Shown here one piece after another: positions 10,325 to 37,305 of a stretch of 64,000 nucleotides of DNA. Where the stretch lies: positions 40,313 through 104,312 of IMG/VR virus record IMGVR_UViG_3300031134_000007; one strand, written 5' to 3'. The translations under genes and the position numbers were made by a program. Origin of the DNA: a virus. Position 1 is the stretch's first letter; each line of letters begins with the position of its first letter. The notes beneath the pieces were generated by a model. That model saw only the letters and a program-made list of their open reading frames with translations, was not told the origin of the DNA and made no database searches.

Positions 10325-11044
10325 TTACGAATCAGTTAACCCCAGATTACCGGCACCGAGCTTCTTGTGAGAAGAGTATTCGCCGCTGGTAATAGGAAGC
10401 ACGATGATATCTTGGGGGTTACGCAGATCCATTGCTTCGAACCAGTTGTTGTAAATCAGTTTGTAATACCCAGCACGCAATACCGTTGATTTGTTCAGCG
10501 GCAGCATGTTCCCTTCAGCAATTCGGACGTATGCCTTCACCACCACCTTACGGGGCAGCTTTGCATCACTGGTGGCTTCACGCCCCACCTTCGTAAAGAA
10601 GATCTCACCAATTGGTGTTGCCGGATAACGCACATGTGCTTTGTTGTACGGTACCAGCCAAACTTCTTCCGTGGAATCCGCATCGCCCAGGATTTTCTTA
10701 TTGGGCTTCAAGGCCACTTCATAGTTGATCGCGTAGATCTTCCACCCACCCGACCACTTTTCCGCATCCATTTGTTCCCAGTCGTACAACGCCGAACTGT
10801 ACCCAGACAAACAACCGTTCAAGGTGCCCGCTGTAGAAACACGAGGAACAGAACGGTCCTCCCGATTCATAGTGCGACGCGATACACGCGGTTCAAATGA
10901 CTTAAGGCTGTTGTTGGTACTAATGTGGAACACCACCCCCGACGAGTTCGCCGGGGTAAGAATGTCGACATTGTTACCGATGGTATTTGGCCAATACTCC
11001 AAAAACCGACGCATATCCTGCAGGTCAGTGTTATTGTCCACCAT
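10325..11044 (-). CDS. Hypothetical protein, possible ART-like fold
   Basis: 239 aa; FHIS...FEPR...PRVST...IY...EEVW pattern. Confidence 0.5.
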   Translation of the reverse strand: MVDNNTDLQDMRRFLEYWPNTIGNNVDILTPANSSGVVFHISTNNSLKSFEPRVSRRTMNREDRSVPRVSTAGTLNGCLSGYSSALYDWEQMDAEKWSGGWKIYAINYEVALKPNKKILGDADSTEEVWLVPYNKAHVRYPATPIGEIFFTKVGREATSDAKLPRKVVVKAYVRIAEGNMLPLNKSTVLRAGYYKLIYNNWFEAMDLRNPQDIIVLPITSGEYSSHKKLGAGNLGLTDS

Positions 11045-33443: not shown

Positions 33444-34112
33444 TTAAAGGTTGTTGGTCAGCATCATTGCGTGCAGGATAGCACCCACCGTCTTGGTGGA
33501 TTTTACCTTGGTCTTTTGACTGGCAATGGCACCGACGTTCACACCGCCTGTGGCGATGATCTCGTTGTTATAACTCCGGTAAGCGGCCTCATCACCCCCA
33601 CGCACCTTCAACAGCTCCTGCATGGTTTTGTTCATCCCCATGGCGTACAGGATCTGAATCTCAGGATAGGAGATAGCGGAACCTTTCGATTCGGTGGTAG
33701 GCTGACCGGTCAGGTCGTCAACGTGCTTGTTATCTTTGGGTACCGACATCTTCTTCTGTAGCTTCTGCTGCTGGATACGCAGCGGTAGACGCAGAATAGG
33801 ATACTCGATCGGTGTCAGGAAGCGCTGGCTGGTTTCGAAGTCAACCATGTTGATCTTCTCCATGAACGCACCACCTTCCTTGGTGATTAATCCGATCAGG
33901 TGTTCCAGGTCGATGTTCTTACCCGTGAAGTTCGGATGGTAGAACGGAAAGGACTCATCATCCTTTTCCATGCGGTCCATCATCGCATCAAAGGCAGCGT
34001 CATCCAAACGACCAAAGTAGTCGCGGTAGATGTCAGGGTTTTTGTTCCCCGGCATCACCTGATCCATTGCCCCGATCAGGTATTTCTCAATAGCAGCACG
34101 TGCAGCGTTCAT
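33444..34112 (-). CDS. Virion RNA polymerase beta C-terminal subunit (phiKZ gp149 / SPN3US gp218-like)
   Basis: LTGQPT..SKG..ISYPE and ELLKVRGGD match the RpoB C-terminal TQQP/GQRFGEME/E.LT.KSDD region. Confidence 0.8.
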   Translation of the reverse strand: MNAARAAIEKYLIGAMDQVMPGNKNPDIYRDYFGRLDDAAFDAMMDRMEKDDESFPFYHPNFTGKNIDLEHLIGLITKEGGAFMEKINMVDFETSQRFLTPIEYPILRLPLRIQQQKLQKKMSVPKDNKHVDDLTGQPTTESKGSAISYPEIQILYAMGMNKTMQELLKVRGGDEAAYRSYNNEIIATGGVNVGAIASQKTKVKSTKTVGAILHAMMLTNNL

Positions 34113-34115
34113 GGG

Positions 34116-35405
34116 TTAGTCCTTGCTGAATATAAACACGAAATGGCTTATATTATTTTTCACAAGGAGGTCGATCATGTTTTTGGTGCCACGCGACTCA
34201 CCGTCCCAGAAGATCAGACCCGCATCTACCATCTTACCCATAACCCCATTGCGAATCATGCCGGCAGGTTTCTGATACTTGTCCCACAATGCAGGTCGGC
34301 CGATTAACCCATGACCTTGTTCGCGTGCATAACGAATCGCCATGTTGTCAGGGCCATCCAGTGCCAGACCGGTCACGAGTTCAATGTCGTAGTCTTTATC
34401 AAACGGTGTGATAAAGTTACTGATGTACTCGTCCGTGATCTGTTTGAACAGGCTGTAGTTCTTCAGGGTGCGTGAGCCCGCAATCAAGATCTTCATGGGT
34501 TTCTTCCTGGAGCTCTCAGATTCTTCTTGCATTTTATTCCGGTACTCCACGTAGAAGTCCAGCTGCCATTGATGCCGCGCCTTCATATCCCGGACTGCAT
34601 CGTTGCCGTACACGTAATAGTGTTCAAACGGCAGTGATGAGTTCAGGAGCTCTGAGCGCAGGATCTCATTTTGTTCGAGGCGTAAGCGCATGCCTTCTTT
34701 GAAACGTTCCTGGAAATCGGGCAGGTCTACCCGTTCCATCTTGGAACCGATCTGCTTGGCTTCAAACCCGTTCATCTGTTTGAACTGTTCATGTTTGCAG
34801 CCTGTGGCCAACCAGTACCAGTATCCTTCTAAACATTCGAACCATCCGTGATCCTCGTGCAGGAAACCATGTTTCGACAGGTTGCTTAACCGACGTCCGA
34901 GACTGGTGCTGCTTTTGGTCCAGATGTTGATATGTTCGACCCCATCATTTTTGGGGTTGGGTAATTTGACACCAAGGCAGAGATGCACTTGCAAGTCACA
35001 ATCACCTAAAATGGCATAAATGAGAGGACGCACGTCCTCCCACTTAAGACCACCATTACCACAGCCGAGCGGTGGCATAGCTACGCTCGTGATACCCCGA
35101 TCCCGGTAAGTATCACGCAGCGTACGCAAGTTGGTTTCAATCCATTCCAACTTGCTGTCTTCCCAAGTTTTGTCTTTAGTTGGGAAGCAAAGAATTTTTG
35201 GCGTGTTGTGTTCATAAACCCATAACGTGTTGACCAGTAATTGTTTTTGTTTGCACTGCTCACGGTATGCGTCATAAAGACCGGGAATACACTTCTTGAG
35301 ATACAATGCAATACCGCGACCCATATGCCCTTCAGTGTTGACGGTGCAAATGACGTGGCTGACTGGTACGTCAAGAATGCCGATGTGTGATTCCGATACG
35401 ATCAT
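34116..35405 (-). CDS. Macro domain + NADAR-like + SLOG (YspA/DUF2493-like) fusion protein
   Basis: VNTEGHMGRGIA, FPTK, AMPPLGCGNGGL.W (macro); LSN...F...EGYW, L.QNE.L..ELL (NADAR-like); IAGSR, W.KY.K.AG.IRN, FWDGESRGT.NMI (SLOG). Confidence 0.75.
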   Translation of the reverse strand: MIVSESHIGILDVPVSHVICTVNTEGHMGRGIALYLKKCIPGLYDAYREQCKQKQLLVNTLWVYEHNTPKILCFPTKDKTWEDSKLEWIETNLRTLRDTYRDRGITSVAMPPLGCGNGGLKWEDVRPLIYAILGDCDLQVHLCLGVKLPNPKNDGVEHINIWTKSSTSLGRRLSNLSKHGFLHEDHGWFECLEGYWYWLATGCKHEQFKQMNGFEAKQIGSKMERVDLPDFQERFKEGMRLRLEQNEILRSELLNSSLPFEHYYVYGNDAVRDMKARHQWQLDFYVEYRNKMQEESESSRKKPMKILIAGSRTLKNYSLFKQITDEYISNFITPFDKDYDIELVTGLALDGPDNMAIRYAREQGHGLIGRPALWDKYQKPAGMIRNGVMGKMVDAGLIFWDGESRGTKNMIDLLVKNNISHFVFIFSKD

Positions 35406-35414
35406 AGTGAATCC

Positions 35415-35897
35415 TTAAATCGCGCAGGTAAACACCCGCACACGACTGCCGTTAGTGAGGCAGGCTTTGATCAGTGAAGACATCCCTTCGTCGTTGTGGT
35501 TGGTGAAGATCAGGGCATGCGTAGAACGCAGACCTAACACCCCACAGTTGTCGAAGAACGCTTTCTTTCCACGATCCCACTCTACCGGGATTTCCTGGAT
35601 ATCAATGCCTGCAGCGACCGAGTACTCTTTCACCTCTGCTGCCAGGGTTTTAATTTCCCCGTTGGTGATCAACACCACGTGCTCTTTCGTCAGGAGTTCA
35701 TCCTCATCCGTCACACCTTCATTAACCAGAAAGATGTCACTGATCAGCGAGTCCAGTGCCGACTTCAGGCGGTCCTTGTTATGAAACCCCTTATCGCCGG
35801 CAACGACTATACGTACTTCTTTATTCAACATAATAGCCTTTCCCAATACAACATTACATTCCCAACCGGCGGTATAAAGTGGGGTGAGTTTCCTCAC
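35415..35897 (-). CDS. Degenerate stand-alone SLOG/DUF2493-like protein
   Basis: RIVVAGDKGF, IPVEWDRGKKA, HALIF...G...LI parallel the neighbouring SLOG domain. Confidence 0.5.
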   Translation of the reverse strand: MRKLTPLYTAGWECNVVLGKAIMLNKEVRIVVAGDKGFHNKDRLKSALDSLISDIFLVNEGVTDEDELLTKEHVVLITNGEIKTLAAEVKEYSVAAGIDIQEIPVEWDRGKKAFFDNCGVLGLRSTHALIFTNHNDEGMSSLIKACLTNGSRVRVFTCAI

Positions 35898-35916
35898 CCC
35901 TTAGCGCGCGGACACA

Positions 35917-37305
35917 TTACATCCAGTACGGACGGTACTCATCATGGTACATGCGGAGCAAGTCCATGGTGCTCAAGAACGGCAGAGGATGGTTATCTTC
36001 CTCAAACGTCCAGAAGCCACGGGTGTTCAGCAGGACGTCCCACTTATACCCTTTCTTCTCCAGTCCAACACGCAGTTCTTCAGGTGTCATGTTGTACTTC
36101 GGATCACGGGTGTGCCATAAGTAACGCATCTGGCACATCTCCATGGTGATTTCCAGCGCACGACGCAGCTCTGGGGTTTCGTCGATCTTACCGCGCACGG
36201 TGGTACGCATCAGCTTCACATCGGGCAGTAACTCAACATAGTAATTACGGTCATTACCGCCAAGGCCGTAACGGTTACAGTTTTTGATGTGGTTGAATTC
36301 AGTCAGTGACGGCAGCAGACCTTCGGACTGTGACATCACAAATTCCCACGGCACACCAGATGGACCGTTCTTACCGCGCAGGTTCTTCGCGACCAGCGTC
36401 AGCAGATCTGGGTTGCCTGCGGTTTCAATATCACCCGGTTTTGGATACATCCACTCTTTGGTGTCACGGTTGATCAAGACCGTACCGGTGGAGATCTCCC
36501 AGGCGTTGTTCGGCAGGGACAGGATTTGGCTTGGCACTTTAGAGATCTTGTCACCTTGCTTCATGAAGGTGGTTTTCTTCTCTTGTGGCTTGCCGTCCAT
36601 GTTCAGCTCTTTACCGAGGTGAGCGGACATAATAACGTACAGACCGCCGGCGTTGGCGTAACCCTGCGTCTTTTCAATCAGCATACGTTTGGCGTTCGAC
36701 ACACGCATGGCTTCGGTCTGCATTTCACCCTGACCGATTTCCATTTTCGCGTAGTTCTTTTCCAGGTCGTTGAACTTCATCTCAGAGATGGAGTCCGCGC
36801 CATTGACAGTCGGGAACAGATACGGAATCGGGTTACCCTGGGCATCCACAAACGGCAGGGTACCCATGGACTTGCGGTCTTTCTGTTTCAGACCCGCATA
36901 CTCCTGAACGGTTTTCTTAAACCATTCGTTACCCTTAGCGATCGAGTCATCGGTCAGGTAAATACGGCCTTCGTCGATCCAGCTCTGGGCGACACCCGGA
37001 TCAAGGTGGGACATCAAGCTGAGGATACGGTCAGTACCAAAGGTACACTCGGTATCGTAGTGCAGGGCGTTACTGTTGCCGTAACGTTCTAATACACGAC
37101 CCATCTTGAACATCATAATAGCGGTTTTGAAGGTGTTGCCTTTCCCGACAATCGCAGTGTAAGGAGCCAGTCCACCATTGAGGATAGACTCACCATGCTT
37201 ACCAAAACGATAACTGCCGGTCGGGATGTCAAAGCCAGCACCGATATTCAGCAACGGCCTTATCGGTTTAGACTTCTCAATAACTTCACCAAAAGATAAG
37301 CTCAT
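35917..37305 (-). CDS. uvsX: UvsX/RecA-like recombinase
   Basis: Walker A GKGNTFKT; YDTE; DSISE; KNLRGKNGPSG; synteny with phiKZ gp152. Confidence 0.8.
   Translation of the reverse strand: MSLSFGEVIEKSKPIRPLLNIGAGFDIPTGSYRFGKHGESILNGGLAPYTAIVGKGNTFKTAIMMFKMGRVLERYGNSNALHYDTECTFGTDRILSLMSHLDPGVAQSWIDEGRIYLTDDSIAKGNEWFKKTVQEYAGLKQKDRKSMGTLPFVDAQGNPIPYLFPTVNGADSISEMKFNDLEKNYAKMEIGQGEMQTEAMRVSNAKRMLIEKTQGYANAGGLYVIMSAHLGKELNMDGKPQEKKTTFMKQGDKISKVPSQILSLPNNAWEISTGTVLINRDTKEWMYPKPGDIETAGNPDLLTLVAKNLRGKNGPSGVPWEFVMSQSEGLLPSLTEFNHIKNCNRYGLGGNDRNYYVELLPDVKLMRTTVRGKIDETPELRRALEITMEMCQMRYLWHTRDPKYNMTPEELRVGLEKKGYKWDVLLNTRGFWTFEEDNHPLPFLSTMDLLRMYHDEYRPYWM

What the first reader, a model, noticed from the sequence alone, without database searches (positions are those of the whole stretch)
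34116..35897. Macro + NADAR-like + SLOG triple fusion with an adjacent second SLOG: candidate phage system that erases DNA ADP-ribosylation
Seen: one 429-aa ORF has three modules. The macro domain spans aa ~1-145 (VNTEGHMGRGIA, FPTK, PPLGCGNGGL.W), a NADAR-like region aa ~153-290, and a YspA/DUF2493-type SLOG aa ~303-429. The gene immediately upstream is a degenerate SLOG. Both sit between the core genes uvsX and the vRNAP beta C-terminal subunit. Established: DarG-type macro domains, which use the FPTK lysine, remove thymidine-ADPr written by DarT2; NADARs remove guanine-ADPr written by DarT1; SLOG domains bind NAD/ADPR-derived nucleotides, as in Thoeris ThsA. Inference: a single protein could neutralise both DarTG classes and also sense or sequester ADPR-type signals. 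The NADAR call is the weakest of the three.
Basis: partly seen in the sequence, partly recalled or inferred. Interest (0 to 1): 0.85.

Follow-up and report, generated by a model that had tools for sequence, protein, structure and literature searches.

The report
Fused macro-NADAR-SLOG ADP-ribose eraser gene
A jumbo phage related to the nucleus-forming Erwinia phage RAY fuses into one protein two enzyme domains that other phages carry separately to strip defensive ADP-ribose marks off their DNA, plus a nucleotide- or DNA-binding SLOG domain of unknown role; the parts are known, the fusion is untested.

Summary
The ORF at 34116-35405 (-) encodes 429 aa in three real domains.

- **Macro, aa 1-147:** DarG2-type. 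It matches the PADLOC DarG model at 9e-43 and T. aquaticus DarG at 4e-23. It is 32% identical to PhiKZ AdfM. The FPTK lysine (K77) and N23 are conserved.
- **NADAR, aa 148-298:** No Pfam hit. The AlphaFold model (pLDDT 97) matches only the three solved NADARs in the PDB (Z 12.5, 11.4, 10.2). The catalytic Glu (E193) is invariant. His262 is the residue typical of phage NADARs. The canonical Lys position is not conserved.
- **SLOG, aa 299-429:** YAcAr family. Its nearest solved folds are YpsA, ShosA and DprA.

The upstream 138-aa gene is a paralogous SLOG that has lost the family's motif residues.

The module is conserved in about 20 related phages between uvsX and a vRNAP beta gene. It is fused here and split into two genes in RAY.

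Most likely it is a dual DNA de-ADP-ribosylase that counters DarTG2 and DarTG1 inside the phage nucleus. Its parts are already published as AdfM, AdfN and Aravind-lab domain catalogues. The fusion, this NADAR clade and the SLOG role are untested. Interest is moderate.

The parts
34116..35405 (-). 429-aa macro-NADAR-SLOG fusion gene
   Evidence: ORF list; full-length homologues of 421-431 aa in 11 protein clusters; full-length single-piece match in Erwinia phages pEa_SNUABM_37/48
34965..35405 (-). DarG2/AdfM-type macrodomain (aa 1-147). N23 and K77 (FPTK) sit at the positions of the catalytic residues.
   Evidence: Pfam Macro 4e-11. PDB: 5m31 T. aquaticus DarG 3.6e-23, 5m3i M. tuberculosis DarG 3.8e-21. 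PADLOC DarG 9.3e-43 and NCBIfam DarG 138 bits, macro half only. 32% identity to PhiKZ gp104, E 1e-22.
34512..34964 (-). His-type phage NADAR domain (aa 148-298). E193 is invariant; H262 is near-invariant.
   Evidence: AF2 pLDDT 97.4. Foldseek and VIA-align hit only YbiA, 8BAU and 8BAT, Z 10.2-12.5. BFVD hits NADAR proteins. Profile vs PDB: 8BAU, E 0.08. hhalign to T4 gp30.3/AdfN: 77%, E 2e-5. Conservation table.
34119..34511 (-). YAcAr-family SLOG domain (aa 299-429) with intact GSR, SGLAxGxD and WDGxSxGT motifs
   Evidence: Pfam PF10686 at 30.5 bits. AF2 pLDDT 93.5. VIA-align wide: YpsA Z 12.4, ShosA 11.7, DprA 11.3/10.8/10.3, ThsA SLOG 9.1, LOG 8.5. Profile vs PDB: DprA 3uqz, E 0.005.
35415..35831 (-). 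138-aa paralogous SLOG that has lost most family-invariant motif residues. The ORF list extends it to a GTG at 35897.
   Evidence: BLASTP to the C-terminal SLOG 5e-5; hhalign 92.7%. The 138-139-aa homologues always lie directly upstream of the macro gene in 21 phage records. The ATG has a GGGAAAGG RBS, and the GTG lies inside a hairpin.
35881..35900 (-). 8-bp GC-rich hairpin with a GAAA loop between the uvsX stop and the small SLOG gene
   Evidence: Read directly from the sequence. It has no T-run, so it is not a canonical intrinsic terminator.
35917..37305 (-). UvsX-like recombinase gene (context, upstream)
   Evidence: phrog_97 1.1e-45; same synteny in RAY gp150
33444..34112 (-). Virion RNA polymerase beta subunit fragment gene (context, downstream)
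   Evidence: phrog_3233 2.7e-83; RAY gp154 'vRNAP beta subunit 2'

Best explanation
This is a counter-defence gene of a phage closely related to the nucleus-forming Agricanvirus group. One polypeptide carries two different glycohydrolases that take ADP-ribose off DNA bases.

- The N-terminal macrodomain is an orphan DarG2-like enzyme, a homologue of AdfM. It should hydrolyse thymine-N3-ADP-ribose written by DarT2, using K77 of the FPTK motif, with N23 also needed.
- The middle NADAR domain is a relative of T4 AdfN. It should hydrolyse guanine-N2-ADP-ribose written by DarT1-type enzymes, using E193 and H262.
- The C-terminal YAcAr SLOG keeps its phosphate-binding loops. It most likely holds the enzyme on its substrate (ssDNA, as in DprA) or binds the ADP-ribose moiety or product.
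- The small upstream SLOG has lost those loops and is probably a non-binding structural partner.

The protein probably works inside the phage nucleus on replicating phage DNA, next to UvsX.

Shown here: domain identities, folds, conserved residues and synteny. Shown in the literature for homologues: activity and protection by PhiKZ/T4 AdfM and T4 AdfN, and nuclear localisation of RAY gp153. Inferred: activity and specificity of this protein, and every SLOG role.
For: Macro: DarG models match at 9.3e-43 (PADLOC) and 138 bits (NCBIfam) over the macro half. Solved DarG macrodomains are the best PDB hits, with FPTK aligned. It is 32% identical to PhiKZ AdfM with N23 aligned. AdfM removes DarT2 ADPr from DNA, rescues DarT2 toxicity and is nuclear (PMC13309987).

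NADAR: the fold matches only the solved NADARs, Z 10.2-12.5. E193 is invariant in 161 of 161 family domains and H262 is present in 158. His at this position marks 'phage NADARs' (PMC11543638; PMC12945103). hhalign aligns E193, K204 and H262 with AdfN E36, K43 and its His. [quoted passage not shown]

T4 carries AdfN and AdfM as separate genes, so dual coverage is a known phage strategy.

RAY gp153, the NADAR+SLOG homologue of aa 148-429, co-localises with DNA in the phage nucleus. The module and its synteny are conserved in about 20 phages.
Against: No activity was measured for this protein or for any member of its NADAR clade.

The canonical NADAR Lys position (+7 from Glu; K43 in AdfN, where K43A kills function) is Ala here and Ser/Ala in most of the clade. 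46 of 161 members have no basic residue at +7, +10 or +11. The Pfam NADAR model does not detect the domain.

The macro lacks DarG's C-terminal DarT-binding domain.

Proteus phage 10 lacks the NADAR, so the three parts are not obligatorily coupled.

The window's record is a 104-kb fragment (37% complete). Chimallin and the host's DarT systems were not examined.
Confidence: 0.65

Rival explanations
1. The NADAR-SLOG part and the small SLOG act mainly in recombination, as DprA-like mediators that load or assist the adjacent UvsX on ssDNA. The ADP-ribose hydrolase domains are secondary.
For: The genes lie directly downstream of uvsX in all related phages. RAY gp153 is annotated DprA-like, is nuclear, and its authors assigned it to recombination. 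DprA structures are among the best fold hits, Z 10.3-11.3. The SLOG profile hits DprA 3uqz at E 0.005 across the GSR and SGLAKGID motifs.
Against: The domain is 134 aa and has no room for the additional domains that flank the Rossmann-like core in bacterial DprA. Pfam DprA (PF02481) does not hit this protein. YpsA scores as high as DprA. The same SLOG is fused to this NADAR in 26 of 78 longer representatives, often together with DUF4326. The 'DprA' label overlooked the NADAR domain, which makes up half of gp153.
Confidence: 0.12
2. The protein handles soluble NAD-derived molecules rather than DNA adducts. The SLOG binds or makes an ADPr-derived signal and the Macro and NADAR domains degrade it. 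This would be a phage 'toggle', or a quencher of Thoeris-like or other ADPr-based immune signals.
For: This is the published prediction for YAcAr SLOG domains fused to Macro or NADAR in jumbo phages (PMC7824862). The ThsA SLOG bound to 3'cADPR is a fold relative, Z 9.1. The SLOG keeps its Gly-rich ligand loops.
Against: The macro is specifically of the DarG2 type, not the MacroD or Poa1p type. Its homologue acts on DNA. All characterised NADARs act on base-linked ADPr. The RAY homologue is nuclear, whereas immune signalling is cytoplasmic.
Confidence: 0.13
3. The enzymes reverse ADP-ribosylation of RNA or protein. Examples are CmdT-type mRNA modification, RNA-end ADPr, or marks written by a phage-encoded transferase, serving RNA repair or regulation.
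For: NADARs also remove G-ADPr from RNA, and some remove C-ADPr. Macro and NADAR domains are linked to NAD-dependent RNA repair in jumbo phages. The gene sits beside RNA polymerase and RNase H genes.
Against: DarG-type macrodomains are described as specific for DNA thymine-ADPr. A first-stage suggestion of a phage ART gene at 10325-11044 got no Pfam support at E<=0.05. No RNA-repair genes are adjacent.
Confidence: 0.07

Closest known systems
AdfM (anti-DarT factor macro): PhiKZ gp104 and T4 Tk.4
   Same: It is a stand-alone DarG2-like macrodomain of a phage. It is 32% identical to PhiKZ gp104, with N23 and the FPTK lysine aligned. Both come from phiKZ-like jumbo phages. AdfM removes DarT2 ADPr from DNA and is imported into the phage nucleus (PMC13309987). 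T4 AdfM protects against DarTG2 (10.1101/2025.11.20.689424).
   Different: Here the macrodomain is the N-terminal third of a 429-aa protein that also carries NADAR and SLOG domains. PhiKZ gp104 is a 162-aa single-domain protein.
AdfN (T4 gp30.3) and the 'phage NADAR' family
   Same: It has the NADAR fold, a conserved catalytic Glu, and His in place of the Glu/Asp of other NADAR families. AdfN removes guanine-ADPr and defeats DarTG1 (PMC11257639).
   Different: The relationship is remote: no BLASTP hit and hhalign at 77%. This clade has a one-turn longer helix after the Glu and does not conserve the K43-equivalent. It has extra conserved residues (D154, H158, N160, K217). It is usually fused to YAcAr SLOG and/or DUF4326. 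No member has been assayed.
DarG2 antitoxin of DarTG2 (T. aquaticus, M. tuberculosis)
   Same: The macrodomain is the best sequence match, 3.6e-23 to 5m31, and the DarG HMMs match at 9e-43.
   Different: It has no C-terminal DarT-binding domain: only profile positions 8-145 of 338 match, scoring 138 bits against a 250-bit cut-off. There is no adjacent DarT. It is an orphan antitoxin-like enzyme, not a TA component.
RAY gp152 + gp153 (Agricanvirus; gp153 annotated 'DprA-like')
   Same: These are the same three modules, about 55% identical, in the same place: uvsX, small SLOG, macro, NADAR-SLOG, vRNAP beta. gp153 is nuclear.
   Different: In RAY and its relatives the macro and the NADAR-SLOG are two genes about 30 nt apart. 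Here, and in pEa_SNUABM_37/48, they are one ORF.
YAcAr (PF10686) SLOG family; YpsA, DprA and ShosA folds
   Same: It has the Rossmannoid SLOG fold with GSR, SGxAxGxD and DGxSxGT loops.
   Different: It is a minimal 134-aa domain without DprA's accessory domains. Its ligand is unknown. The upstream paralogue has lost the loops.

Membership tests
DarG2-type macrodomain / AdfM | Macro fold with best similarity to DarG macrodomains | tested here: met
   Pfam Macro 4e-11; 5m31 at 3.6e-23 and 5m3i at 3.8e-21; PADLOC DarG 9.3e-43
DarG2-type macrodomain / AdfM | Catalytic lysine of FPTK (T. aquaticus DarG K80) and the Asn mutated in PhiKZ AdfM (N23) | tested here: met
   K77 is aligned in the FPTK motif. 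N23 is aligned with PhiKZ N23.
DarG2-type macrodomain / AdfM | Hydrolysis of thymine-ADPr on ssDNA; protection from DarT2 | not testable with these tools
   Needs biochemistry or genetics; shown only for PhiKZ and T4 homologues
Full-length DarG antitoxin (NF048014) | C-terminal DarT-binding domain and a score above the equivalog cut-off | tested here: not met
   138.4 bits against a cut-off of 250; only profile positions 8-145 of 338 are matched
NADAR superfamily | NADAR fold | tested here: met
   VIA-align gives Z 12.5 (YbiA), 11.4 (8BAU) and 10.2 (8BAT), 139 residues aligned at rmsd 3.1-3.3. In Foldseek no other PDB entry scores below E 3. BFVD returns NADAR proteins.
NADAR superfamily | Match to the Pfam NADAR model (PF08719) | tested here: not met
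   No Pfam hit for aa 146-302 at E<=10. None of 50 family members hit it at E<=1. Four hit PF08010 (T4 gp30.3) weakly.
NADAR superfamily | Catalytic Glu (PnNADAR E43 / AdfN E36) | tested here: met
   E193 is invariant in 161 of 161 domains. It aligns to the 8BAU Glu and to AdfN E36.
NADAR superfamily | Catalytic Lys seven residues after the Glu (AdfN K43, E. coli C7 K95) | tested here: inconclusive
   Position +7 is A200 and is Ser/Ala in most of the clade. hhalign instead aligns K204 with K43 across a 4-residue gap. 46 of 161 members have no basic residue at +7, +10 or +11.
Phage NADAR family (His type) | His replacing the Glu/Asp of YbiA/DarG1 NADARs | tested here: met
   H262 is present in 158 of 161 domains and aligns with the AdfN His. 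The criterion comes from PMC11543638 and PMC12945103.
SLOG superfamily, YAcAr family (C-terminal domain) | PF10686 at the gathering score, and a SLOG Rossmannoid fold with Gly-rich loops | tested here: met
   28.2 bits (equal to the cut-off) in the full protein and 30.5 bits for the domain alone. The top 14 fold hits are all SLOG proteins. Motifs are conserved.
SLOG superfamily (upstream 138-aa gene) | Homology to YAcAr and retention of its motif residues | tested here: inconclusive
   Homology is supported: hhalign 92.7% and BLASTP 5e-5. Pfam gives only 20.5 bits, below the cut-off. The motifs are replaced: GSR by GDK, GLAxDGPD by NGEIKTLA, AGMIRN by AFFDNC, WDGESRGT by TNHNDEGM.
DprA recombination mediator | PF02481 at the gathering score plus DprA's accessory domains | tested here: not met
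   No PF02481 hit for this protein. The SLOG part is only 134 aa. Some relatives hit PF02481 below the cut-off.

The most novel reading that the evidence does not exclude
NADAR-SLOG may be a conserved two-part cassette with biochemistry not yet described. This NADAR clade lacks the canonical Lys and has its own conserved D154, H158, N160 and K217. It could have a substrate other than guanine-ADPr. The YAcAr SLOG could be an obligatory partner that binds ssDNA or the ADP-ribose moiety, or processes the released product. The cassette takes either a macrodomain or DUF4326 at its N-terminus, which would make DUF4326 a candidate fourth kind of nucleic-acid ADP-ribose-processing domain. The degenerate upstream SLOG would be a regulatory pseudo-subunit.
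Probability: 0.18. Interest if true: 0.75.

Novelty: new variant of a known kind. Interest (0 to 1): 0.45.

Why it matters
Phage enzymes that erase DNA ADP-ribosylation are a recent class of counter-defence: AdfN in 2024-25 and AdfM in 2025-26. This gene puts both enzyme types in one protein of a phage related to nucleus-forming phages, so one import event could deliver cover against both DarTG classes to the replicating genome.

It also corrects an annotation. The nuclear 'DprA' of Erwinia phage RAY (gp153) is half NADAR.

It points to a large, unassayed NADAR clade: 1447 cluster representatives and 538 phage records. That clade is not covered by Pfam and is habitually fused to YAcAr SLOG and DUF4326, two domains with no known function. 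Simple assays on this protein could assign functions to all three.

Tried and rejected
- **Pfam on the middle domain alone, E<=10:** nothing.
- **BLASTP of the middle domain against T4 gp30.3:** nothing. Only profile and fold methods link them.
- **Geometry of the catalytic Lys:** I wanted to check K204, K209 and K217 against E193 in the model, but model coordinates are not exposed to the script box.
- **The look-up of encoding contigs for the HEG-containing variant P0005:** I used pairwise alignment and the AH06 annotation instead.
- **First-stage note of an ART-fold gene at 10325-11044:** no Pfam hit at E<=0.05, so I did not use it as context.
- **A motif 'hairpin + ACTTTAT' seen twice (35874, 38178):** not above chance, since 13 of 100 shuffles reach two matches.
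- **Literature search for DUF2493, DUF4326 and YspA:** no functional studies found.
- **Not examined:** chimallin or other nucleus genes in the 104-kb record, host DarT systems, and whether Asesino's AdfM is fused.
Full report
**The gene.** The minus-strand ORF at 34116-35405 encodes 429 aa. A protein cluster 100% identical to it, and ten further clusters of 50-81% identity and 421-431 aa, exist in public assemblies. The fusion is therefore real and recurrent. The window belongs to a 104-kb virus fragment judged 37% complete. The nearest named phages are Erwinia phages pEa_SNUABM_37/48 (82% nt), Salmonella phage SA002 (80%) and the Agricanvirus group.

**Macro domain (aa 1-147).**
- Pfam Macro matches at 4e-11.
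- The best solved relatives are the DarG macrodomains of T. aquaticus (3.6e-23) and M. tuberculosis (3.8e-21), then the Thermosipho DarTG fusion. TARG1 follows only at 3e-7. The FPTK motif aligns, so K77 sits at the position of the catalytic lysine.
- The PADLOC DarG model scores 9.3e-43. The NCBIfam DarG equivalog scores 138 bits against a cut-off of 250, because only the macro half (profile positions 8-145 of 338) is present.
- The domain is 32% identical to PhiKZ gp104 (E 1e-22), with N23 aligned to N23.
- PhiKZ gp104 is AdfM. It removes DarT2 ADP-ribose from DNA, N23A weakens it, it rescues DarT2 toxicity, it protects the phage, and it is imported into the phage nucleus (PMC13309987). T4 Tk.4 is a second AdfM.

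**Middle domain (aa 148-298).**
- No Pfam model detects it, even at E<=10.
- A full HMMER scan of 1.84 billion cluster representatives found 1447 relatives at E<=1e-3. Many are stand-alone proteins of 145-170 aa.
- An AlphaFold model built on 50 of them has pLDDT 97.4.
- Against the PDB, Foldseek returns E. coli YbiA, the Phytophthora NADAR-ADPr complex and the Geobacter DarG1 NADAR as its top three. Nothing else scores below E 3.
- VIA-align gives Z 12.5, 11.4 and 10.2, with 139 residues aligned in each case.
- BFVD returns RAY 'DprA-like protein' and then many annotated viral NADARs.
- A profile of the family hits only 8BAU in the PDB sequence set, at E 0.08.
- Five family members weakly hit Pfam Phage_30_3. 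That model is T4 gp30.3, which is AdfN.
- hhalign of the family against T4 gp30.3 gives 77% probability, E 2e-5.

**NADAR catalytic residues.**
- In 161 aligned domains, E193 (of LEGYW) is invariant. H262 is present in 158, N160 in 160 and D154 in 152. K217 is basic in 160, and position 209 is basic in 153 (the residue labels printed in that output are three lower than the true numbers).
- E193 aligns with PnNADAR E43 and with AdfN E36.
- H262 aligns with the His that defines 'phage NADARs', in place of the Glu of YbiA types and the Asp of DarG1 types.
- The canonical Lys, seven residues after the Glu (AdfN K43; K43A is dead), is A200 here and mostly Ser/Ala in the clade.
- hhalign instead aligns K204 with K43 across a four-residue insertion. 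However, 46 of 161 members have no basic residue at +7, +10 or +11.
- Whether K204, K209 or K217 does the job could not be settled without model coordinates.
[quoted passage not shown] No member of this clade has been tested.

**SLOG (aa 299-429).**
- Pfam YAcAr scores 28.2 bits in the whole protein and 30.5 bits for the domain alone; the cut-off is 28.2.
- The model has pLDDT 93.5.
- An unbiased fold search ranks YpsA (Z 12.4), ShosA (11.7), DprA (11.3, 10.8, 10.3), TM1055, MCP, ThsA SLOG (9.1) and LOG (8.5).
- The family profile hits pneumococcal DprA at E 0.005 through the GSR and SGLAKGID motifs.
- The near-invariant residues (G310, R312, G346, A348, G351, D353, W374, A381, G382, R385, N386, S404, G406) are all present.
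- The fold and motifs do not distinguish ssDNA binding from nucleotide binding.

**Upstream gene.**
- It aligns end to end with the C-terminal SLOG at 23% identity, E 5e-5. It aligns with the family profile at 92.7% probability.
- The motif residues are replaced: GSR by GDK, GLAxDGPD by NGEIKTLA, AGMIRN by AFFDNC, and WDGESRGT by TNHNDEGM.
- Homologues are 138-139 aa. They occur in 21 related phage records, plus one weak Streptococcus phage hit. In each phage examined the gene lies directly upstream of the macro gene.
- The GTG start at 35897 lies inside a hairpin just after the uvsX stop. The ATG at 35831 has an RBS and gives 138 aa.

**Module variants.**

| Phage(s) | Arrangement |
|---|---|
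| This window, pEa_SNUABM_37/48 | macro-NADAR-SLOG in one ORF |
| RAY, Ea35-70, Special G and relatives | macro and NADAR-SLOG as two adjacent genes |
| Proteus phage 10 | macro-SLOG, no NADAR |
| SA002 | macro-NADAR, then a second gene equal to aa 104-429 (partial tandem duplication) |
| AH06 | a small extra gene at the macro/NADAR junction |
| P0005, P0007 | a GIY-YIG/I-TevI-type endonuclease at the macro/NADAR junction, in frame in the called protein |

The order uvsX, small SLOG, module, vRNAP beta is constant. RAY gp153-GFP co-localises with DNA in the phage nucleus, and its authors read it as DprA.

**Wider family.** Among 78 longer representatives of this NADAR clade, 34 carry DUF4326, 26 carry YAcAr and 2 carry Macro. 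A DUF4326-NADAR-SLOG protein of about 380 aa is common. [quoted passage not shown]

**Reading.** The best explanation is a dual DNA de-ADP-ribosylase for counter-defence. The macro acts against DarT2-type thymine marks and the NADAR against DarT1-type guanine marks. It acts in the phage nucleus, with the SLOG as a substrate- or product-binding module and the small SLOG as a degenerate partner. I put this at 0.65. The rivals are a DprA-like recombination role (0.12), processing of soluble ADPr signals (0.13) and RNA or protein de-ADP-ribosylation (0.07).

**Novelty.** This is a new variant of a known kind. The parts are published. The fusion, the clade's chemistry and the SLOG function are open.

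Noticed in passing
L001:1989-3865 (Salmonella phage SA002): SA002 carries a macro-NADAR gene (290 aa). It is followed by a 326-aa gene that equals aa 104-429 of the window protein at 69% identity: a truncated macro end, a second NADAR and the SLOG. This is a partial tandem duplication of the module.
   Followed up: partly
P0005 / P0007 (683-684 aa); L007:1959-2306 (Erwinia phage AH06): A GIY-YIG + NUMOD3 + I-TevI DNA-binding homing endonuclease sits at the macro/NADAR junction, in frame in the called protein. It is flanked by a repeated ~12-aa 'LPxPxxDGxxHI' segment. The macro part is 91% identical to the window protein, but the NADAR-SLOG part is only 67% identical, which suggests recombination at this site. 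AH06 has a small extra gene at the same junction. This junction may be where the gene splits and fuses.
   Followed up: partly
P0179, P0152, P0146, P0257 and others: DUF4326-NADAR(His type)-YAcAr SLOG proteins of about 380 aa are common. They parallel macro-NADAR-SLOG, with DUF4326 in the macro's place. 34 of 78 longer clade members carry DUF4326.
   Followed up: partly
window 35881-35900 (-): A perfect 8-bp hairpin, GGGGTGAG-GAAA-CTCACCCC, lies 17 nt after the uvsX stop. It has no T-run. The GTG start listed for the upstream ORF lies inside it.
   Followed up: partly
window 10325-11044 (-): An earlier first-stage note proposed an ADP-ribosyltransferase fold for this 239-aa ORF. Pfam gives no hit at E<=0.05. 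No fold test was done.
   Followed up: partly
L003:3977-4858 (Erwinia phage RAY gp153): The public annotation 'DprA-like protein', and its published reading as a recombination protein, overlook that its N-terminal half is a NADAR domain.
   Followed up: yes
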